Shown piece after piece: positions 42,630-57,756 of a stretch of 64,000 nt of DNA. Source of the stretch: a virus (lineage: Duplodnaviria > Heunggongvirae > Uroviricota > Caudoviricetes); IMG/VR virus record IMGVR_UViG_2718217789_000006; one strand, 5' to 3'. Below the pieces are notes generated by a model. It did no database searches. It was not told the origin of the DNA and saw only the letters and a list, made by a program, of their open reading frames with translations. Position 1 is the stretch's first letter. Every line of letters starts with the position of its first letter. The position numbers were made by a program, and so were the translations under genes.

Positions 42630-43316
42630 ATGACCCCAATAAAAATATTTATGACTATTGCTGATTTCAAACGGCCTAAATTGGAGCTCCCAAACGGGGC
42701 AAACAAACTACTACTGCACTCTTGCTGTGCTCCATGTTCCGGTGAAGTGATGGAGGCGCTTCAGGCCTCGGGAATCGACTACACCATCTTTTTCTACAAC
42801 CCGAACATTCATCCTCAGAAAGAGTATTTAATTCGTAAGGATGAAAATATTCGCTTTGCTGAACAACACGGCGTGCCGTTTATCGATGCTGATTACGACA
42901 CCGACAACTGGTTTGAACGTGCCAAAGGAATGGAATGGGAGCCTGAGAGGGGGATCCGTTGTACCATGTGTTTTGACATGCGTTTTGAGCGGACAGCGTT
43001 GTACGCTGCTGAAAATGGTTTCAGTGTGATCAGCAGTTCACTGGGCATTTCACGCTGGAAAAATATGCAGCAGGTTAACGAGTGTGGGCGGCGAGCTGTT
43101 GCGCATTATCCGGGTATGGTGTACTGGGATTATAACTGGCGCAAGCAGGGCGGCTCGTCCCGTATGATTGAAATCAGCAAGCGCGAAAAATTCTATCAGC
43201 AGGAATATTGTGGCTGTGTGTATTCTCTGCGCGATACCAATCTACACCGCAAATCTCAGGGACGCCCTCTTATCAAAATTGGCCAACTCCACTACGGAAA
43301 AGAAGAGAAGGAGTGA
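42630..43316 (+). CDS. QueH-like (DUF208) epoxyqueuosine-reductase family protein
   Basis: …[14 protein letters not shown]… and downstream Cys motifs ([16 protein letters not shown]) match the remembered DUF208/QueH signature. Confidence 0.6.
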
Positions 43317-43494
43317 TTTTATGGATCACCTTTCTGATTGATTTCATATTGGCGAGGTGACGTGAGTTAAGTAGAATTGCTGCGGGTGCCTGAGGCTGTC
43401 TGCCTCAGGCATGAACACCAAAAGGCAGATAGAGAAAGCCCCAGTTAACATTACGCGTCCTGTAAGACGCTCAACATTAATCTGAGGCATATGG

Positions 43495-44619
43495 ATGCGG
43501 ATGAAAGAATTAAATAAATTCAGAGTGATAGACCTCTTTTGTGGGGCAGGTGGATTATCTTATGGTTTTCTTCATGGAGAGATGTCTGACTACTTTGAAA
43601 GTATCCTTGCTATTGATAATAATGCTGCAGCTATAAATACCTACAATGCCAATTTTGGTTTGCATGGAGTTCAGGCAAATATTGAGGAGTGGGCATCCAG
43701 CAATACTGTTCCTGAGGCTGATGTGGTCATAGGTGGCCCCCCGTGTCAGGGATTCAGTTTATTGAATAAGAATCGTTATGGTGATCACCGAAGAGCATTG
43801 TGGGAGCCTTATATGGATGTCATTGAGCGTTCAAGGGCTTGTATGTTCGTCATGGAAAATGTCCCCGGATTGCTGATAAGCGATGAGTTTGCGGACATTA
43901 CGTTTAGAGCGAAATCCATGGGCTTTATTCTGCTTAATCCAATGGTGTTGAATACTGCTGACTATGGAGTACCTCAGACAAGAAAACGAACGATAGCAAT
44001 CGGTATCAAACGAGAACTCTTCGATGTGCATAGTATTCCGGCGTTCCCGCCAGCACCAACGCATCGTTCCCCTGATAAGGATGTCGCTTTGCCTGAATGG
44101 GTCTGTACGCGTGATGCAATTGGTGACTTACCTGCTCCTGTTGGAACTGATATTCGTAATGAACTTCCTCCGCTGAACTTACATTTTGGGCGTAATCCCA
44201 CACCTGTTTCTCTGGAGCGATATAAAGCGGTTCCACCAGGAGGTAACCGTTTCGATTTACAGAAAAAAAGACCTGATATAACCCCGGCGTGCTGGCTAAA
44301 AAAGAAATCTGGAGGGACCGATTTGTTTGGACGTCTGTGGTGGGACAGACCTTCAGTAACGATTCGTACTGAGTTTTTCAAACCGGAGAAAGGGCGATAT
44401 TTACATCCGGAAGAGGATCGGCCAATAACTCATCGTGAGGCAGCGAGATTAATGTCTTTTCCTGATAATTTCATTTTTACCGGTTCAAAAACTGAGATTG
44501 CAAAGCAGATCGGGAATGCTGTTCCACCGCTATTTGCGGCAAAAATCGCACAATATGTGTATGGAGTTTTGCAGGGACGGTATAAGAATAACATCAGTAA
44601 GAATAGTCAAGCAGCCTGA
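43495..44619 (+). CDS. DNA cytosine-5 methyltransferase
   Basis: Motif I DLFCGAGG, motif IV GGPPCQGFS, motif VI ENVPG; GAGG RBS 7 nt upstream. Confidence 0.85.
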   Translation: MRMKELNKFRVIDLFCGAGGLSYGFLHGEMSDYFESILAIDNNAAAINTYNANFGLHGVQANIEEWASSNTVPEADVVIGGPPCQGFSLLNKNRYGDHRRALWEPYMDVIERSRACMFVMENVPGLLISDEFADITFRAKSMGFILLNPMVLNTADYGVPQTRKRTIAIGIKRELFDVHSIPAFPPAPTHRSPDKDVALPEWVCTRDAIGDLPAPVGTDIRNELPPLNLHFGRNPTPVSLERYKAVPPGGNRFDLQKKRPDITPACWLKKKSGGTDLFGRLWWDRPSVTIRTEFFKPEKGRYLHPEEDRPITHREAARLMSFPDNFIFTGSKTEIAKQIGNAVPPLFAAKIAQYVYGVLQGRYKNNISKNSQAA

Positions 44620-44632
44620 AGGAAATCCAGAA

Positions 44633-45511
44633 ATGAATGGAGATTTGGTTGACAGCATAGTTGGTTTTGCTGAAGCCAGAAAGGAGTTTCATGCCCAATT
44701 GTTACTGAATACGCTCACAATTAATACTGCCGGAGTTGTTAGTAACGCAGATAGCAGTAACAAAAACAGTAAAGCTATAGCAAGAGAAATTGCTCGCTTC
44801 TTGCAGGCTGAAACGATTGGTGAACGTGTTGCAGGGCAAACATCTGGTAATCAGTTTGAGAGTATCTGCGCAGAGTTTATAGAAAAAACCTTTTTTAAAC
44901 TCAGCCACTTACGCCCTGGAAAATGGAATGTACATCAGGTTTCTGGTAGAAACAGATTAGAGATAGCTAAATATGAACAATATGCCCATCTTATAGCATT
45001 GGATAGTGCTGCAAAAAGTAATCCTCAGCTAGCTGCTGCACTGGGGAGTGATTATACGATTTCACCAGATATTATTGTTGAAAGAGAACCTGAATGTGAT
45101 CAAGTTATCAACAGTCCTGAATTACTGGTGGATGATTCTGTTACCCGCATGTCAGCTCTCAGGAGTTCGAATGGTGGGAAACCAATATTACACGCAAGTA
45201 TTTCCTGCAAATGGACAATAAGAAGCGACCGGGCCCAGAATGCTCGTTCTGAGGCATTAAATCTTATTCGCAACCGTAAGGGAAATCTCCCTCATGTAAT
45301 GGTTGTTACTGCTGAGCCTACTCCAAGTCGTCTGGCGTCTATTGCTCTTGGTACTGGTGATATAGATTGCGTGTATCATTTTGCGCTTTATGAACTTATA
45401 TCAGCAGTTGAAATACTGGGGCTCAGCGATGCAGCTGACATGCTTTCCGTGATGGTTAATGGTAAAAGATTAAAGGATATTTCTGATCTTCCCTTGGATC
45501 TTGCAGTCTGA
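44633..45511 (+). CDS. Putative type II restriction endonuclease paired with the methyltransferase
   Basis: 292-aa ORF starting 13 nt after the methyltransferase stop with AAGGA RBS; PD…K-like segment (…SPDIIVERE…ISCKWT…); assignment by context. Confidence 0.45.
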   Translation: MNGDLVDSIVGFAEARKEFHAQLLLNTLTINTAGVVSNADSSNKNSKAIAREIARFLQAETIGERVAGQTSGNQFESICAEFIEKTFFKLSHLRPGKWNVHQVSGRNRLEIAKYEQYAHLIALDSAAKSNPQLAAALGSDYTISPDIIVEREPECDQVINSPELLVDDSVTRMSALRSSNGGKPILHASISCKWTIRSDRAQNARSEALNLIRNRKGNLPHVMVVTAEPTPSRLASIALGTGDIDCVYHFALYELISAVEILGLSDAADMLSVMVNGKRLKDISDLPLDLAV

Positions 45512-49843: not shown

Positions 49844-49951
49844 TATTGCAGAATTAACCGGGTATCAGGTACGCCCCGAAAATTTTAAATGTCTCACAAT
49901 TCAGACGGTTGACAGTTGTCTGGTTTGCGGGGAGTTTGTTAAAAGAAACTG

Positions 49952-50067
49952 GCATGGTGAATCCCCCTGAGCGGAGGGGCATATCAGCGCAGGTGTTTCT
50001 ACTCTATCCTTTCTGTGCGGGTTCAGGTGCTGATACTGAACTCACCGGGAGGCACCCGGCACCATGC
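49952..50067 (+). ncRNA. Conserved structured non-coding element (candidate sRNA), copy 2
   Basis: Same reverse-complementary outer arms and flank hairpins as copy 1, with a different central segment. Confidence 0.35.
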
Positions 50068-50091
50068 ATATGGTTAACAGACACGTAGCGA

Positions 50092-50117
50092 AGCCCCTCT
50101 CCGGAGGGGCTTTTTTT
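50092..50117 (+). terminator. Intrinsic terminator upstream of nanS-p
   Basis: AGCCCCTC-TCCG-GAGGGGCT hairpin followed by T7. Confidence 0.65.
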
Positions 50118-50346
50118 ATGGGCAAAAAAAGCCCGCGCTGGGAGACGCGGGCGGCAAGGAATAAACAACAAAACGTGAAGTAATATTTCAGCTGGCGAAT
50201 AATACCCCATGGTAATCACTCTGCGCAACTGCGCGGCCTTTTTCGAATTGCGGGCTGTAAGTCTCCCTTCTGCCATTGTCCTGTAACTTCCGAACTTCAG
50301 CCCGCTCTTTATCTGATTCAGTACACTATCCCGGCCGGGAGGATTC

Positions 50347-52293: not shown

Positions 52294-52430
52294 TAAAAAA
52301 AACCGCCAGCGACAGGAATGGACGCTGGCGGTGGTAATACCTATGGAGAAAAAATAAAGGAACGATACTTTCGTGCTCTGGTTTTTTAAATGAAAACAGT
52401 TCTTATTGTCAACAATAACGGAAAGAAATT

Positions 52431-52610
52431 ATGACATTTCTGAACCAGTTAATGCTGTACTTCTGTACGGTGGTCTGTGTGCTGTATCTCCTTTCGGGTG
52501 GGTACAGGGCCATGCGTGACTTCTGGCGCAGACAGATTGACAAAAGGGCCGCTGAGAAAATCAGCGCCAGTCAGTCAGCCGGAAGCAAACCCGAAGAGCC
52601 GCTCATTTAG
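52431..52610 (+). CDS. Small membrane protein (59 aa)
   Basis: MTFLNQLMLYFCTVVCVLYLLSGG… hydrophobic N-terminus; below ORF-track cut-off. Confidence 0.3.
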   Translation: MTFLNQLMLYFCTVVCVLYLLSGGYRAMRDFWRRQIDKRAAEKISASQSAGSKPEEPLI

Positions 52611-52650
52611 CGGCAACTTTCTTAATCACACCTTTCGACGAGAAAATCCC

Positions 52651-52896
52651 ATGTCAGAAATTACATCCCTGGTCACTGCTGAAGCAGTGAAGGAAGTCCT
52701 GCGCTCTGAAGAAGTCCGGAGCGCACTGAAACAGAAACTTCGCCATAACCTGGAAGCGCGTCTTGATGCAGAAGTGGATGCCATTCTGGATGAACTGCTG
52801 GGCGCACCGGCAGCTCCGGAGCCGGAAGGCATCGCGGGTGAGGGGAGTGCTTCAGATAGCGGTGACCCCACACCGGACAGCGACATGATGATGTAA
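52651..52896 (+). CDS. Small acidic protein (81 aa)
   Basis: ATG at 52651 inside the 52477..52896 ORF; acidic C-terminus. Confidence 0.35.
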
Positions 52897-52973
52897 GCAT
52901 GCGTCAGGGACCATCGGTGTGTGCCGGTGGTCTTTTTTATTGTTGTGAGCTTCCGGATTGCGGGAGGCGGGGT

Positions 52974-53189
52974 ATGAACCAGATGGAAAAAATCACAACA
53001 GGTGTGTCATACACCACGTCAGCGGTGGGAACGGGCTACTGGTTCCTGCAGTTGCTGGACAGGGTTTCCCCGTCTCAGTGGGCGGCAATAGGCGTGCTGG
53101 GGAGTCTGCTGTTTGGTCTGCTGACGTACCTGACGAACCTGTATTTCAAAATCAGAGAGGACAGGCGTAAGGCGGCACGGGGAGAGTAA
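52974..53189 (+). CDS. S: Pinholin S21-like with dual start (MNQM…)
   Basis: GGGAGGCGGGG RBS; two in-frame ATGs three codons apart; about 90% nt identity to the prophage-1 holin. Confidence 0.85.
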
Positions 53190-53193
53190 GCTG

Positions 53194-53727
53194 ATGAGCA
53201 GGAAACTCCGCTATGGTTTATCGGCTGCCGTTCTGGCGCTGATTGCCGCAGGTGCTTCTGCGCCTGAAATCCTCGACCAGTTTCTGGATGAAAAGGAAGG
53301 TAACCACACCACGGCATACCGTGATGGTGCGGGTATCTGGACCATCTGCCGAGGCACCATCATGGTGGATGGTAAGCCTGTGATTCCTGGCATGAAGCTG
53401 TCGAAGGAAAAATGCGACCGGGTTAACGCTATCGAACGGGATAAGGCGCTGGCATGGGTGGAGAAAAACATCAAAGTGCCGCTGACCGAACCCCAGAAAG
53501 CGGGGATCGCGTCATTCTGTCCGTACAACATTGGTCCCGGTAAGTGTTTCCCGTCGACGTTTTACAGACGAATTAATGCAGGTGATCGAAAAGGTGCCTG
53601 CGAAGCGATTCGCTGGTGGATTAAGGACGGCGGCAGAGACTGCCGTATTCGCTCAAACAACTGCTACGGTCAGGTATCCCGTCGCGACCAGGAGAGTGCG
53701 CTGGCGTGCTGGGGAATTGACAGATAA
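53194..53727 (+). CDS. R: SAR endolysin
   Basis: Near-identical to the prophage-1 endolysin. Confidence 0.85.
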   Translation: MSRKLRYGLSAAVLALIAAGASAPEILDQFLDEKEGNHTTAYRDGAGIWTICRGTIMVDGKPVIPGMKLSKEKCDRVNAIERDKALAWVEKNIKVPLTEPQKAGIASFCPYNIGPGKCFPSTFYRRINAGDRKGACEAIRWWIKDGGRDCRIRSNNCYGQVSRRDQESALACWGIDR

Positions 53728-54025
53728 GCAGAATATTTTGCTGAAAAATGCGGTTTGCTCACACGGACGGATAACACGAAATCCTGCGAACTGACAAAAA
53801 CTAAGTGAATAAAAGTAAAAACCCCGTTTGTTGGCTGCAAGCGGGGTTTTGTGTTTCCTGACTCTGGAAAAGTCAAAGGAGAAAGTGTGTTTGATTTTAG
53901 CAAACTGATTCGGGAGATTCGAGTGATGGCTGAAAAATTATCCACCTGGAAGTTCATTCTTATCTGGCTGGTGTTTGTGATTATGGCCTCCGGTTATTTC
54001 ATCGGTCAGATACGCTGGTGGTGAA

Positions 54026-54493
54026 ATGAACCGCGTACTGTGCGTGGTCATCATTGCCCTGCTGGTGGCCTGTGGTGCGCTTAGTCTGGGGCTGAATCAT
54101 TACCGTGATAACGCCATAACCTACAAAGAGCAGCGCGATAAAAAAGTCAGTGAGCTGGAGCAGGCAAATGCAACCATTACTGATATGCAGCAGCGCCAGC
54201 GTGATGTTGCTGCACTCGATGCAAAATACTCGAGGGAATTAGCCGATGCGAGAGCTGAAAATGAAACTCTGCGTGCTGATGTTGCCGCTGGTCGTAAGCG
54301 CCTGCGGATCAACGCCACCTGCCCCGGTACCGTGCGTGAAGCCACCGGCACCTCCGGCGTGGATAATGCAACCGGCCCCCGACTGGCAGACACCGCTGAA
54401 CGGGATTATTTCATCCTCAGAGAACGGTTGATGATGATGCAGAAGCAGCTGGAAGGGGCGCAGGAATATATCCGCACTCAGTGTATTAACTAG
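54026..54493 (+). CDS. Rz: Rz i-spanin
   Basis: Paralog of the prophage-1 Rz. Confidence 0.8.
   Translation: MNRVLCVVIIALLVACGALSLGLNHYRDNAITYKEQRDKKVSELEQANATITDMQQRQRDVAALDAKYSRELADARAENETLRADVAAGRKRLRINATCPGTVREATGTSGVDNATGPRLADTAERDYFILRERLMMMQKQLEGAQEYIRTQCIN
54261..54431 (+). CDS. Rz1: Rz1 o-spanin lipoprotein
   Basis: Embedded +1 frame, lipobox LVVSAC. Confidence 0.75.
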   Translation: MKLCVLMLPLVVSACGSTPPAPVPCVKPPAPPAWIMQPAPDWQTPLNGIISSSENG

Positions 54494-54516
54494 TATTTTT
54501 GTTATCCGGAGAATGC

Positions 54517-54741
54517 ATGAAGAAATTACTGGTAACCGTAAAGCCTTTTCAGGGAACAATTCCGTTCCGTATTTTGCAGCGTGGTCGTGTTCTTGTTGAA
54601 GGTTCGTTCAGTGGTAAATGTACGCAATTACACTCCCGGACCTTTCAGGTGAATGCCACGAATGAAGAACTAACCGTGGAGTGTACGATGAATGCCGCTA
54701 AATGCCGCATGGCATCCGCTGCATTACAGCCAGTGTGTTGA
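54517..54741 (+). CDS. Hypothetical small protein downstream of Rz
   Basis: ATG with GGAGA RBS; Cys-containing 74-aa product without signal peptide. Confidence 0.4.
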   Translation: MKKLLVTVKPFQGTIPFRILQRGRVLVEGSFSGKCTQLHSRTFQVNATNEELTVECTMNAAKCRMASAALQPVC

Positions 54742-54949
54742 GCGACCTTATTATCCATGCGCGGTATTGTCGCCGTATTCCTGCATTAACAGAGACCGCA
54801 GCCCGACAGGGAGACTCCTCTGCGCGAGTGTGCGGGGATAATCAAAAACGATACACACCGGGGTTTACCGCGTTAACGGAGCGCGGCGTTGTCCCCTCAT
54901 AGTCGCCAGTCCGGTGCGATGGTGGAAGAAACTGGATTTTGTTGCAAAT

Positions 54950-55015
54950 GATAACCATTATCATTTTGCGGGTCCTCCTGGTGGGGTGGGCCTGAACACG
55001 GGGCGGGCGGCGCGG
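54950..55015 (+). other. Candidate cos/packaging region of prophage 2
   Basis: GATAACCATTATCATTTTGCGGGTCCT matches the prophage-1 cosQ-like motif; followed by GC-rich GGGGCGGGCGGCGCGG, 145 nt upstream of the terminase small subunit. Confidence 0.35.
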
Positions 55016-55159
55016 AAAAAGGCGCATTTTTTGATTTTTATGGCACCATCACCACCAGTGTAAGTTATTGATATATAGAAAAATAAAAATTTTTAGTGTC
55101 GAATCTGGTTGTTTTTTGTTCATCACTGGTGTGTGTTTACATAATTTTCAGGGGGAGTT

Positions 55160-55636
55160 ATGGATCGTGAATTAAAAAATCTGCATCTGAATATTTCCCA
55201 ACTGGCCGCATTATCCGGTGCTCATCGACAGACTGTTGCGGCTCGGGTAAAAAACATAAGCCCAGCCGGTGGTCATGAGAGCAATCTCAAACTGTACCGA
55301 CTGACAGATATCCTTGCCGAGCTGATGAAAGCTCCTCTGCCTGTAGATAACGAGGAAATGGATCCTCATGCGCGTAAAGCATGGTACCAGTCAGAACGTG
55401 ACCGACTGAAATTTGAGCAGGAAACTGGTCAGCTTGTGCCAGTCAGTGATGTCAGGCGGTCCTTTTCTGTCGTGGTGAAAGCGATAGTTCAGGTACTGGA
55501 AACCTGGCCTGACCGGCTGGAGAGGGACAGGGGGTGGACCGCATCACAACTGAATGAAGTACAGATTGTGGTTGATGAGATCCGCGACACACTGGAAAAG
55601 GCAGTCATTGACTGTTGTGATGAGGCCGATATGTGA
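55160..55636 (+). CDS. Terminase small subunit (non-lambda type)
   Basis: 158-aa ORF with N-terminal HTH-like segment, immediately upstream of and overlapping the large subunit. Confidence 0.6.
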   Translation: MDRELKNLHLNISQLAALSGAHRQTVAARVKNISPAGGHESNLKLYRLTDILAELMKAPLPVDNEEMDPHARKAWYQSERDRLKFEQETGQLVPVSDVRRSFSVVVKAIVQVLETWPDRLERDRGWTASQLNEVQIVVDEIRDTLEKAVIDCCDEADM

Positions 55637-57756
55637 ATCAGGTGAACGAGAGCCATAGCCGCGCATCCGATATCTGGCGCGAAGTGGCCTCGCTGTTTCG
55701 CCCACCTGGCCGGTTACCAGTAGCGGAAGCCATCAGGCGTTATATGCGGGTTCCACGGGGAGCCAATACTTCCGGTCCGTGGGAGTCATCGCTGACGCCC
55801 TATATGATTGACCCCATTAATACATTATCAGCCCGTGAATATGACGCGGTGGTGTTTGTGGGACCTGCGCGAACCGGGAAAACCGAAGGGCTGATTGATG
55901 GCTGGATTGTGTACGGCATCATCTGTGATCCGGCGGATATGCTGGTGGTGCAGATGACTGAGACGAAGGCGCGTGAGCATTCCAGAACGCGTCTTTCCAG
56001 GACGTTTCGCCACAGTCCGGAGGTCAGCAAGCGCCTCAGTCCTTCCCGTAATGACAACAACGTCCACGATAAAATGTTTCTTGACGGCTCCTTCCTGAAG
56101 ATTGGCTGGCCGTCGATCACCGTCTTTTCCTCTTCGGATTACCGTCGTGTGGCGCTGACGGATTATGACCGTTTCCCTGAAAACGTGGACGGGGAAGGGG
56201 ATGCCTTCACGCTGGCCTCAAAGCGTACCACCACCTTTATGTCCTCGGGGATGACCCTGGTCGAGAGTTCACCGGGGCGGGATATCACCGATACCAAATG
56301 GCGTTGTGGTGGCGCACATGAGGCACCGCCAACAACGGGGATCCTGTCACTGTATAACCGGGGAGACCGCCGCCGGTGGTACTGGCCGTGTCCGCACTGC
56401 GGGGAATATTTTCAGCCGGTGATGGATAACATGACCGGATACCGGAATAACCCGGATTTTGTGGCTGCCGGTCAGGCTGCCCGTCTGATGTGTCCGCATT
56501 GTCGCGGGCTGATTGCCCCTGAGCAGAAACGCGAACTGAATAACCAGGGGATCTGGCTTCGTGAAGGTGAACGGGCGGCGGCGGACGGCAGTATCACCGG
56601 AACGCCACGAAACTCCCGGATTGCGTCATTTTGGATGGAGGGGCCAGCTGCGGCGTTTCAGACCTGGGAACAACTGATTTTTAAACTGCTGGCGGCAGAA
56701 GAAGAGTATGAGCGAACCGGCAGTGAAGAGACTCTGAAAGCGGTGGTGAACACCGATATCGGACGACCCTATCTGCCCCGTTCAGCCACGGAACAGCGTA
56801 AAAGTGAACTGCTTGAACAGCGTGCCGAGCCGTTTCCCCGGCGATCTGTGCCGGATGGTGTGCGTTTTATTGAGGCAACGGTTGACGTACAGGGCGGTAA
56901 AAATCGCCGTTTTGTTGTGCAGATCACCGGATACGGAGAGCAGGGGGAACGCTGGATTGTTGATCGCTACAACATCCGGCATTCACTGCGCTGCAGTCCC
57001 AACGGTGAAAGTCTGCCGGTTGATCCGGCGGCATATCCGGAGGACTGGGATTTGTTGCTGACGGATGTGTTCCATAAAACATGGCCGCTGGCTTCTGATC
57101 CGGATGTGCGCATGCGTCTGATGGCCATGGCGGTGGATACGGGAGGGGAAGCCGGGGTGACAGATAACGCCTATCGTTTCTGGCGTCGTTGCCGGAGTGA
57201 CGGACTGGGCAACAGGGTGTTTCTGTTCAAGGGGGATGGACTTCGCCGTGACAGGCTGATTAACCGAACCTTCCCGGATAATACCGGCAGAAGTGCCCGC
57301 CGTGCCAGAGCCAGTGGCGATGTCGCGCTGTGGCTGGTTCAGACGGATGCGTTTAAGGATCGTGTAAATAATGCCCTGTGGCGTGACACACCAGGGCCGA
57401 ACTATATCCACTTTCCCGACTGGCTGGGGCGGTGGTTTTACGATGAGCTGACCTATGAAGAGCGCGGCAGTGACGGAAAATGGCGAAAACCGGGCAGGGG
57501 CGCTAACGAAGCGTTTGACCTGCTGGTTTATGCGGATGCGCTTGCCGTTCTGCATGGTTACGAAAAGATCCGCTGGCCCTCCGCACCGGACTGGGCACAG
57601 CGGGAAACGTGGCTCGTCTTCCCGCAGGAGCGTTCTGGTGAAACGGTATCCCCGGAACTGACGGCCGGGGCAGAAAAACGCCGTCGCCGGAAGAAAAAAC
57701 TGTGGACGGAGCGTGCGGAAGATAATCCATGGATAACATCAGGAGGCTGGTTGTGA
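55633..57756 (+). CDS. Terminase large subunit (GTG start)
   Basis: 707 aa; Walker A VGPARTGKT. Confidence 0.8.
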   Translation: MNQVNESHSRASDIWREVASLFRPPGRLPVAEAIRRYMRVPRGANTSGPWESSLTPYMIDPINTLSAREYDAVVFVGPARTGKTEGLIDGWIVYGIICDPADMLVVQMTETKAREHSRTRLSRTFRHSPEVSKRLSPSRNDNNVHDKMFLDGSFLKIGWPSITVFSSSDYRRVALTDYDRFPENVDGEGDAFTLASKRTTTFMSSGMTLVESSPGRDITDTKWRCGGAHEAPPTTGILSLYNRGDRRRWYWPCPHCGEYFQPVMDNMTGYRNNPDFVAAGQAARLMCPHCRGLIAPEQKRELNNQGIWLREGERAAADGSITGTPRNSRIASFWMEGPAAAFQTWEQLIFKLLAAEEEYERTGSEETLKAVVNTDIGRPYLPRSATEQRKSELLEQRAEPFPRRSVPDGVRFIEATVDVQGGKNRRFVVQITGYGEQGERWIVDRYNIRHSLRCSPNGESLPVDPAAYPEDWDLLLTDVFHKTWPLASDPDVRMRLMAMAVDTGGEAGVTDNAYRFWRRCRSDGLGNRVFLFKGDGLRRDRLINRTFPDNTGRSARRARASGDVALWLVQTDAFKDRVNNALWRDTPGPNYIHFPDWLGRWFYDELTYEERGSDGKWRKPGRGANEAFDLLVYADALAVLHGYEKIRWPSAPDWAQRETWLVFPQERSGETVSPELTAGAEKRRRRKKKLWTERAEDNPWITSGGWL

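What the first reader, a model, noticed from the sequence alone, without database searches (positions are those of the whole stretch)
54517..54741. Small Cys-containing ORF downstream of Rz in prophage 2
This 74-aa ORF has a good RBS and no signal peptide and sits where prophage 1 carries the PerC-like gene and lambda carries accessory genes; it is unassigned.
Basis: seen in the sequence. Interest (0 to 1): 0.3.

Follow-up and report, generated by a model that had tools for sequence, protein, structure and literature searches.

The report
Small conserved prophage cargo gene
This is a real, conserved 74-codon gene that lambda-like prophages of E. coli carry as an optional insert between their cell-lysis genes and their DNA-packaging site; it is already catalogued, nobody has studied it, and its function is unknown.

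Summary
It has an ATG start, a GGAG 5 nt upstream, 74 aa, four Cys and no signal peptide. The window is two tandem lambdoid prophages of E. coli O157:H7. RefSeq already calls the product WP_000735654.1, "hypothetical protein". It matches PHROG family phrog_2571 (unknown function) and nothing in Pfam, NCBIfam or PADLOC.

It is a genuine gene. dN/dS is 0.13-0.37 between diverged copies. It occurs in 1244 of 5426 complete E. coli genomes and in Stx1a/2a/2c phages. Distant relatives of about 80 aa occur in prophages across Enterobacterales.

A sister O157 prophage has the same Rz-cos-terminase backbone without the gene. The gene is therefore a roughly 270-nt, low-GC cassette inserted just after Rz. 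It sits in the slot that holds bor in lambda and the PerC-family gene in prophage 1. I found no promoter or terminator of its own, so it probably rides the late transcript.

AlphaFold gives a confident small all-beta model with no significant structural match. The Cys residues are not conserved across the family.

In other genera the gene is usually paired with a second small gene (phrog_4280), which is absent here. In Salmonella it sits beside an Acb2/Tad1-like gene. My best guess, at low confidence, is a non-enzymatic binding protein used in phage-host conflict. Overall this is an ordinary uncharacterised accessory gene.

The parts
54517..54741 (+). The 74-aa ORF including its stop codon. 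RefSeq WP_000735654.1, hypothetical protein; member of phrog_2571.
   Evidence: phrog_2571 at E=1.7e-27. dN/dS 0.13-0.37. AlphaFold2 pLDDT 88.7, all-beta.
54508..54511 (+). Shine-Dalgarno-like GGAG, 5 nt upstream of the ATG.
   Evidence: Read directly. The same GGAG is kept in the 74%-identical allele, where it lies inside the extended Rz reading frame.
54482..54757 (+). Approximate extent of the inserted cassette: the last Rz codons and spacer, the RBS, the ORF and about 16 nt of 3' flank. It is absent from otherwise collinear prophages. The left edge is only defined to within about 10 nt.
   Evidence: Alignment with VT2-Sakai and with the O157 PA8 prophage, which has the same Rz, tail, cos and DUF1441 terminase but no ORF. 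ORF GC is 46.7% against 54.5% (Rz) and 55.4% (tail).
54026..54493 (+). Rz i-spanin gene, the upstream neighbour, with Rz1 embedded at 54246-54431. The ORF follows 23 nt after its stop.
   Evidence: PF03245 at 6.9e-50 and phrog_13 at 5.4e-77. The Rz1-like lipoprotein ORF appears.
54758..54940 (.). Conserved non-coding block that forms the right-hand flank of the cargo slot. It is present in 398 phage records with or without the ORF.
   Evidence: No RNA-structure signal (z = +0.4 and +0.8) and no Rfam hit.
54946..55012 (.). cos-proximal elements downstream of the slot: palindrome AAATGATAACCATTATCATTT (54946-54966), cosQ-like GGGTCCT (54970-54976) and cosN-like GGGGCGGGCGGCG (55000-55012).
   Evidence: Read. 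The same layout occurs in prophage 1 (7900-7962) and at the physical right end of a lambda-type phage record. The identities of cosQ and cosN come from my recollection of the lambda literature.
55160..55636 (+). Small terminase subunit (DUF1441 type), the downstream neighbour and next gene of the late operon.
   Evidence: PF07278 at 2.3e-49 and phrog_141 at 5.7e-69.

Best explanation
Shown: the ORF is a real protein-coding accessory ('moron'-type) gene of lambdoid prophages. It is a low-GC cassette of about 270 nt inserted immediately after Rz, in the variable cargo slot between the lysis cassette and cos/terminase.

Inferred: it has no promoter or terminator of its own and sits 23 nt behind Rz. 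In a sister allele its ATG overlaps the Rz stop. It is therefore most likely transcribed and translated as part of the Q-dependent late operon, together with the lysis and packaging genes.

Predicted: the product is an 8.2-kDa cytoplasmic, single-domain, seven-stranded beta-sandwich with no catalytic motif and no known structural relative.

Most likely mechanism (inferred, low confidence): it acts by binding rather than by catalysis. I take it to be a phage-host or phage-phage conflict factor, most probably a counter-defence or host-takeover inhibitor made during lytic growth. In most other lineages it works alongside a second small protein (phrog_4280), which this prophage lacks.
For: Coding and selected:
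- 66 homologues in the 5.8-billion-protein set.
- Present in 1244 of 5426 complete E. coli genomes.
- Found in 26 phage records, including Stx1a/2a/2c phages, and in 198 IMG/VR stretches.
- Many distinct DNA sequences encode the same protein.
- dN/dS is 0.13-0.37 at dS 0.4-1.2.

An insert in a cargo slot:
- Precise empty sites exist in VT2-Sakai and O157 PA8.
- The same slot holds bor, Rha or PerC elsewhere.
- There is a GC dip.

Late-operon expression:
- No sigma-70-like site on the + strand in 52300-55700, and no terminator between the ORF and the small terminase gene.
- The ATGA overlap with Rz occurs in the 74% allele.

Fold:
- pLDDT 88.7, pTM 0.73, seven strands.

Links to conflict functions:
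- Family members move between accessory hot spots regardless of lysis type or terminase type.
- One Yersinia prophage carries a member in its early region, next to a protein kinase, ParDE and ERF. This argues against a dedicated lysis or packaging role.
- In Salmonella the gene lies directly next to an Acb2/Tad1-hairpin gene (PF24729 at 6.1e-17). Elsewhere it lies next to HigBA or HicAB modules.
- The ORF is a local island of divergence: 82.7% identity against 95.5% and 96.5% in its flanks.
- It evolves faster than its partner gene, as expected for an arms-race protein.
Against: There is no direct evidence of expression, of a binding partner or of any phenotype.

Neighbourhood association with one Acb2-like gene and with toxin-antitoxin modules is weak evidence, because this slot also carries virulence regulators and lipoproteins.

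Foldseek found no similarity to any solved anti-defence protein, with a best E of 0.27 in PDB and 0.075 in BFVD. The PDB sequence-profile search was also negative, and PADLOC gave no hit.

dN/dS stays below 1 throughout, so there is no sign of positive selection at the whole-gene level. The promoter scan is a simple consensus search and could miss a weak or non-sigma-70 promoter inside Rz. That would allow expression in the lysogen.
Confidence: 0.35

Rival explanations
1. It is a lysogenic-conversion, exclusion or defence factor. The protein would be made in the lysogen, as bor and Pch/PerC are from the same slot, and would benefit the host or block superinfecting phages.
For: The slot's known occupants, bor and the PerC family, are lysogen-expressed cargo (their expression is from my own knowledge). 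Distant relatives sit beside toxin-antitoxin modules and other prophage cargo. The gene is kept intact in many cryptic or degraded prophages.
Against: There is no promoter-like site upstream, only a 23-nt gap after Rz or an overlap with Rz. The gene is on the same strand as the late operon in every context seen. It has no signal peptide or lipobox, so it cannot act at the envelope where exclusion proteins such as Bor and Cor reside. PADLOC gave no hit.
Confidence: 0.2
2. It is a late-stage helper for lysis or DNA packaging, for example a modulator of spanins or holin timing, or a cos/terminase accessory factor.
For: In 10 of the 11 context types examined, family members lie in the late operon, usually right at the lysis-terminase junction. 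The start codon overlaps the Rz stop in one allele group.
Against: The gene is dispensable: collinear prophages and Stx2a phages lack it. It is associated with at least three lysis-cassette types and four terminase types. It sometimes lies upstream of the holin, or in the early region of a Yersinia prophage. It is cytoplasmic, whereas spanins act in the periplasm.
Confidence: 0.12
3. It is a binding module released at lysis or attached to the virion, acting as a lectin-like or tail-associated small beta-sandwich.
For: The best, though non-significant, fold neighbours are small lectins, carbohydrate-binding modules, C1q-like heads and phage tail-fibre tips. One metagenomic protein (P0077) joins a tail-tip-like segment (PF09327 at E=0.0017) to this domain. 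A 238-aa tail-tip-like gene lies two genes downstream in Salmonella.
Against: All structural matches have E of at least 0.07 and TM-scores of about 0.65 or less. P0077 is a single sequence on a 1.9-kb contig and may be a read-through artefact. The gene is never inside a head or tail module.
Confidence: 0.06
4. It is a non-functional conserved ORF. The reading frame would be a by-product of a conserved DNA or RNA element, or a selfish remnant with no product.
For: The protein has never been observed. The adjacent 180-nt non-coding block is as well conserved as the ORF among close relatives.
Against: dN/dS is well below 1 at high dS. The frame stayed intact in 89 of 89 loci where it was found. 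Recognisable homologues persist down to 25-30% identity with a conserved hydrophobic pattern. AlphaFold gives a confident model.
Confidence: 0.04

Closest known systems
PHROG family phrog_2571 (unknown function)
   Same: Full-length HMM match to the window protein (E=1.7e-27) and to all five distant relatives tested. It is a family of proteins from Enterobacterales prophages.
   Different: Nothing differs. This is the family the protein belongs to, but the family has no described function, structure or name.
Lambdoid 'morons' and cargo of the Rz-cos slot: lambda bor, Pch/PerC of O157 prophages, Rha-type genes
   Same: Same insertion slot between Rz and a conserved downstream block. Optional presence, and GC content different from the flanks.
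   Different: No sequence or fold relationship. No promoter or terminator of its own was detected, whereas a moron is classically an independent transcription unit (PMC3594210 abstract). It has no lipoprotein signal, unlike Bor, and no PerC domain.
Small phage anti-defence proteins such as the Acb2/Tad1 sponges (PF24729)
   Same: Small size, no enzymatic motif, phage accessory location. A PF24729 gene is the immediate upstream neighbour of the Salmonella family member.
   Different: No Pfam match for this protein. It is predicted to be all-beta, not a helical hairpin. It has no structural match to any solved anti-defence protein. Ligand or protein binding is untested.
Small jelly-roll or lectin-like beta-sandwiches (LecB/RS-IIL lectins, CBM36/60, C1q heads, phage tail-fibre tips)
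   Same: General all-beta sandwich topology. These are the top-ranked Foldseek neighbours.
   Different: The matches are not significant (E of at least 0.07, TM-scores normalised to the query mostly 0.4-0.6). The targets are 110-130 aa against 74 aa here. No calcium- or sugar-binding motif could be assessed.

Membership tests
phrog_2571 | Significant full-length match to the family HMM. | tested here: met
   E=1.7e-27, residues 1-73. Distant relatives P0099, P0106, P0071, P0113 and P0093 also match at 1e-16 to 1e-20.
Moron (phage cargo unit in the sense of Hendrix and colleagues) | Extra DNA inserted between genes that are adjacent in related phages. | tested here: met
   Empty sites in VT2-Sakai and O157 PA8 have identical flanks.
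Moron (phage cargo unit in the sense of Hendrix and colleagues) | Nucleotide composition different from the neighbouring genes. | tested here: met
   ORF GC is 46.7% against Rz 54.5% and tail 55.4%. GC3 is 0.45 against 0.57.
Moron (phage cargo unit in the sense of Hendrix and colleagues) | An independent transcription unit with its own promoter and terminator (definition as in the PMC3594210 abstract). | tested here: not met
   No promoter-like site on the + strand in 52300-55700 and no terminator between the ORF and the small terminase gene. The test is a consensus scan only, so it is a weak negative.
PerC/Pch family transcriptional regulators (occupant of the same slot in prophage 1) | PerC domain (Pfam/NCBIfam model). 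| tested here: not met
   No Pfam or NCBIfam hit at E of 1 or below.
Bor/Cor-type envelope lipoproteins | N-terminal signal peptide with a lipobox Cys. | tested here: not met
   The maximum hydropathy over 11 residues is 0.79 and the first Cys is at position 35. The N-terminus is modelled as a beta-strand of the fold.
Acb2/Tad1 nucleotide-sponge family (PF24729) | Match to the Acb2_Tad1_hairpin model. | tested here: not met
   No Pfam hit for the window protein. The neighbouring Salmonella gene does match at 6.1e-17.
Known anti-phage defence proteins (PADLOC-DB) | Match to any PADLOC model. | tested here: not met
   No family matched at E of 0.1 or below.
Zinc-binding or disulfide-rich small proteins (implied by 'Cys-containing') | Cys pattern conserved across the family. 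| tested here: not met
   Only C35 and C56 are kept among close relatives. C63 and C74 are allele-specific, and distant members have other residues at all four positions.
Two-gene module phrog_2571 + phrog_4280 | A phrog_4280 gene immediately downstream. | tested here: not met
   Neither tblastn nor hmmsearch finds the partner in the window. The partner is present in E. coli, Salmonella, Citrobacter, Rahnella and Klebsiella loci.

The most novel reading that the evidence does not exclude
The gene is the solo form of the fast-evolving half of an undescribed two-gene phage module (phrog_2571 followed by phrog_4280). Both halves have confidently predicted folds with no known structural relatives. 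The module would neutralise a host immune system, or a parasitic satellite, during the late phase of lambdoid phage infection. That would make it a new anti-defence family, widespread in E. coli and in Shiga-toxin phages.
Probability: 0.2. Interest if true: 0.55.

Novelty: new member of a known kind. Interest (0 to 1): 0.2.

Why it matters
As it stands, this finding mainly tidies annotation. It shows that a very common E. coli prophage ORF is a genuine gene and a discrete cargo cassette with defined insertion boundaries. The ORF is in about 23% of complete genomes, with up to six copies per genome, and is present in Stx1a, Stx2a and Stx2c phages.

If the conflict-factor reading is right, it would add a new small-protein family and a conserved two-gene module to the list of phage counter-defence candidates. 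These sit in a hot spot of medically relevant Shiga-toxin phages and are cheap to test. Nothing here overturns existing knowledge.

Tried and rejected
1. Pfam, NCBIfam and PADLOC scans gave no hits.
2. Foldseek of a confident model against PDB and BFVD gave no match with E below 0.07. The lectin, CBM and C1q resemblance was therefore rejected as evidence of homology.
3. A PDB sequence-profile search returned only chance-level hits, such as alpha-crystallin and RBP2 at E of at least 0.06.
4. The exhaustive HMM search listed two giant proteins (4004 and 2764 aa) with 18-19 matched stretches. These are Big_13 and HYR Ig-like repeat proteins whose weak repeated matches add up, not relatives.
5. 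The scan of one genome per species found no confirmed locus, probably because of the pattern method.
6. I checked whether the conserved 200-nt block after the ORF is an sRNA or a remnant of the partner gene. It shows no structural signal, no Rfam hit and no tblastn match to phrog_4280. It turned out to be the normal sequence downstream of Rz in hundreds of phages.
7. I first took a Fur-box-like palindrome at 54946-54966 for a possible regulator of the ORF. It is part of the cos-proximal region shared with prophage 1 and a lambda-type phage, so it is not tied to this gene.
8. Literature searches for the accession, the PHROG number and the slot found nothing on this protein.
9. The partner protein was modelled at pLDDT 95.2, but its fold has no PDB match either.
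10. I could not retrieve Sakai or EDL933 locus tags to look up published expression data.

Full report
**What is there.** The sequence shows an ATG at 54517 and a TGA ending at 54741, giving 74 codons, with GGAG at 54508-54511 five bases upstream of the start. The product is MKKLLVTVKPFQGTIPFRILQRGRVLVEGSFSGKCTQLHSRTFQVNATNEELTVECTMNAAKCRMASAALQPVC. It is 8.2 kDa with pI 9.7 and Cys at 35, 56, 63 and 74. No stretch is hydrophobic enough for a signal peptide or membrane segment: the highest 11-residue hydropathy mean is 0.79. An ORF of this size is not remarkable on its own, because the window holds 161 ATG ORFs of at least 74 aa. The case for a gene has to rest on comparative evidence.

**Setting.** The window is 100% identical to E. 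coli O157:H7 chromosomes such as strain 9000. It spans two tandem lambdoid prophages. In prophage 2 the gene order is:
- class II holin
- lysozyme (53194-53727)
- a terminator-like hairpin (53818-53850)
- a small membrane ORF (phrog_6632)
- Rz (54026-54493) with Rz1 embedded
- the ORF
- a 418-nt gap
- DUF1441-type small terminase (55160-55636)
- GpA-type large terminase

RefSeq annotates the ORF as WP_000735654.1, hypothetical protein. Prophage 1 has a PerC-family gene between Rz and the terminase, at window 7131-7445.

**It is a real gene.**
- The protein has 66 homologues in the 5.8-billion-protein collection, all named hypothetical.
- The exact sequence occurs on at least 1000 contigs.
- Its DNA is found in 1244 of 5426 complete E. 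coli genomes, with up to six copies per genome.
- It is found in 26 phage records, mostly Stx2c phages but also Stx2a and Stx1a phages and H-19B.
- 198 IMG/VR stretches encode a relative.
- Among 89 fetched loci the frame was intact in all, and many different nucleotide sequences encode the same protein.
- Nei-Gojobori dN/dS is 0.33 against the 74%-identical Stx-phage allele (dS 0.43). It is 0.23-0.29 against 62-64% alleles (dS 0.8-1.1) and 0.13 between those two.

This is purifying selection on a protein.

**Family.** Pfam, NCBIfam and PADLOC give nothing. The only assignment is phrog_2571, unknown function (E=1.7e-27).

An exhaustive HMM search of 1.84 billion cluster representatives found 47 hits. 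These include stand-alone relatives of about 80 aa at 25-40% identity. They come from Salmonella, Citrobacter, Cedecea, Enterobacter, Klebsiella, Raoultella and Yersinia, all unnamed, and all tested ones match phrog_2571. Stable longer forms with C-terminal extensions exist in Klebsiella (145 aa, 204 cluster members) and Citrobacter (about 165 aa). The extensions match no Pfam family.

Two giant proteins in the hit list are Ig-like repeat proteins whose many weak matches add up, and I discount them.

The four cysteines are not a family feature. C35 and C56 are kept only among close relatives, and distant members have other residues at those positions.

**Structure.** AlphaFold2 with a 24-sequence alignment gives a confident model (mean pLDDT 88.7, pTM 0.73) with seven beta-strands and one short helix. 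Foldseek finds nothing significant in PDB (best E 0.27) or BFVD (best E 0.075). The top-ranked neighbours are small lectins, carbohydrate-binding modules, C1q-type heads and tail-fibre tips, with TM-scores normalised to the query mostly 0.4-0.6. I read this as a generic small beta-sandwich with no identifiable relative. A PDB sequence-profile search was also negative.

**It is an inserted cassette.** Homology between this prophage and others with different packaging modules runs from Rz through the ORF and about 200 nt beyond, to about 54940, and then breaks.

That 200-nt block is present in 398 phage records, far more than carry the ORF. Among them is a lambda-type phage, where the block follows bor. 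VT2-Sakai and 933W-type Stx2a phages also have it, directly after Rz.

Alignments with VT2-Sakai and with an O157 PA8 prophage define a clean empty site. The PA8 prophage has the same Rz, block, cos region and DUF1441 terminase. The ORF, its RBS and a few flanking bases, roughly 54482-54757, are simply added between the Rz stop and ATGCGC(G/C)GTAT. Another E. coli prophage with this backbone carries a Rha-family gene in the slot.

The insert has 46.7% GC against 54.5% and 55.4% in its flanks.

The ORF is also a local island of divergence. Against the Stx2_EH1846 phage, Rz is 95.5% identical and the downstream block 96.5%, but the ORF is only 82.7%, falling to 69-80% in its centre. Different alleles have evidently been exchanged between conserved flanks.

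**Expression (inferred).** A consensus scan finds no sigma-70-like promoter on the + strand anywhere in 52300-55700, and no terminator between the ORF and the small terminase gene. The one terminator-like site inside the ORF is a 5-bp stem, at a frequency expected by chance.

The ORF starts 23 nt after the Rz stop. In the 74% and 92% allele groups Rz is nine codons longer and its TGA overlaps the ORF's ATG. The simplest reading is co-transcription with the Q-dependent late operon, with translational coupling to Rz in some alleles. I could not obtain expression data.

**Context of relatives.** Family members lie on the late-gene strand in these positions:
- between the lysis cassette and the terminase in E. 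coli, Citrobacter, Salmonella, Cedecea, Klebsiella and Rahnella
- between the Q antiterminator and the holin in two Salmonella prophage types
- in the early region of a Yersinia prophage, beside a Ser/Thr kinase, ParDE and ERF

The lysis genes alongside them are of at least three types: P21-type holin with lysozyme and Rz, two holins with a GH19 endolysin, and an M15 peptidase. The terminases are of four types: DUF1441/GpA, Nu1/GpA, HNH with Terminase_2, and Terminase_4. This portability argues against a dedicated lysis or packaging role.

Neighbours include a KilA-N antirepressor-like gene and, immediately upstream in Salmonella, an Acb2/Tad1-hairpin gene (PF24729, 6.1e-17). HigBA and HicAB modules lie nearby in other loci.

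**A partner gene, absent here.** In E. coli (64% alleles), Salmonella, Citrobacter, Rahnella and Klebsiella, the gene is followed within about 10-60 nt by a 67-71-aa gene of family phrog_4280, also of unknown function.
- Starting from the partner, three loci were examined. Two have a phrog_2571 gene directly upstream and one (Franconibacter) does not.
- The two genes co-diverge, but the beta-protein changes faster, for example 30-43% against 57-63% identity between the E. coli and the Salmonella or Rahnella pairs.
- The partner is modelled with pLDDT 95.2 and again has no PDB match.
- The window has no trace of it, so the O157/Stx-phage allele is a solo form.

**Interpretation.** Four things are shown: it is a conserved, selected, optional cargo gene; it is inserted in the Rz-cos slot; its product has no signal peptide; and its predicted fold is a novel-looking small beta-sandwich.

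Two things are inferred: late-operon expression, and action by binding rather than catalysis. My preferred mechanism is a phage-host or phage-phage conflict factor, most likely counter-defence. It rests on four observations:
- the gene is dispensable
- it moves between accessory hot spots
- it diverges faster than its flanks and its partner
- it sits next to an Acb2-like gene and toxin-antitoxin cargo

I put this at about 0.35. The rivals are:
- a lysogen-expressed conversion or exclusion factor (0.2; weakened by the lack of a promoter and of an export signal)
- a lysis or packaging helper (0.12; weakened by dispensability and by the variety of partner modules)
- a released or virion-associated binding module (0.06; only weak fold hints and one possibly artefactual fusion)
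- a non-functional ORF (0.04; contradicted by selection)

**Novelty and score.** The gene is already annotated as a hypothetical protein and already clustered in PHROGs. What is added here is the demonstration that it is a discrete cassette, its insertion boundaries, its wider family, its frequent partner gene, and a confident fold prediction without relatives. It is an ordinary uncharacterised phage accessory gene, so interest is 0.2.

The most novel reading not excluded is a new two-gene anti-defence module of lambdoid and Stx phages, at probability about 0.2.

Noticed in passing
window 54758-54940: A non-coding block of about 180 nt directly after the cassette is at least as conserved among close relatives as the ORF: 22 variable columns in about 180, against 24 of 74 third-codon positions. 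It occurs in 398 phage records, including a lambda-type phage, VT2-Sakai and 933W, always downstream of Rz or the cargo. It shows no RNA-structure signal, no Rfam hit and no convincing ORF. Its function is unknown; it may be a recombination linker or a late-transcript element.
   Followed up: partly
window 54946-54966 and 7900-7919: A near-perfect palindrome resembling a Fur box (AAATGATAACCATTATCATTT, 3 mismatches to GATAATGATAATCATTATC, none expected by chance) sits 3-4 nt upstream of a cosQ-like GGGTCCT in both prophages. It also sits at the right end of a lambda-type phage record. It is part of the cos-proximal region, or possibly the promoter region of the leftward YlcI/YnfO gene in prophage 1. 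Whether Fur binds it is unknown.
   Followed up: partly
window 54970-55012: Probable cos site of prophage 2: GGGTCCT (54970-54976) followed 23 nt later by GGGGCGGGCGGCG (55000-55012), the same spacing as in prophage 1 (7921-7927 and 7951-7962). The assignment is by analogy with lambda, from memory.
   Followed up: partly
L083-L088, L094, L095, L099-L101, L117-L119 (for example L086 5305-5508): A conserved 67-71-aa gene (phrog_4280, MFV..GWV.GW.VVR..PWHL.GVYAT...YGSHRLGSDDF) almost always follows phrog_2571 genes in other Enterobacterales prophages. It has a confident AlphaFold model (pLDDT 95.2) and no PDB fold match. This is an undescribed two-gene module; the partner is missing from this window.
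   Followed up: yes
L086 4650-4943 and L088 2310-2603 (Salmonella prophages): An Acb2/Tad1-hairpin family gene (PF24729 at 6.1e-17) lies between the lysis cassette and the terminase, immediately upstream of the family member. This marks the slot as a place where anti-defence cargo is carried.
   Followed up: partly
window 53818-54024: A strong terminator-like hairpin (14 pairs, then a T-run) at 53818-53850 lies between the lysozyme and Rz genes. It is followed by a small ORF with a hydrophobic segment that matches phrog_6632, unknown function (about 53887-54024). RefSeq does not annotate this ORF in strain 9000. There is also a sub-threshold Rfam rimP-leader hit on the minus strand (53794-53883, E=0.019).
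   Followed up: no
window 49923-50123 (+): An Rfam STnc100 sRNA match (148 bits) lies downstream of the antiterminator gene and just upstream of the DUF6645 (NanS-p-like esterase) gene, at the start of the late region of prophage 2.
   Followed up: no
window 42651-45511: Prophage 2 carries a QueH gene, a C5 cytosine methyltransferase and an NgoMIV-family restriction endonuclease. An Rfam sok antitoxin RNA match at 43384-43564 overlaps the start of the methyltransferase gene. This is defence and addiction cargo in the early region.
   Followed up: no
L115 (E. coli O157 PA8) and L116 (E. coli OkiPb01680): There is natural presence/absence polymorphism at the slot in the same prophage backbone: it is empty in PA8 and holds a Rha-family regulator in OkiPb01680. 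This material could serve as natural controls for testing the gene's function.
   Followed up: yes
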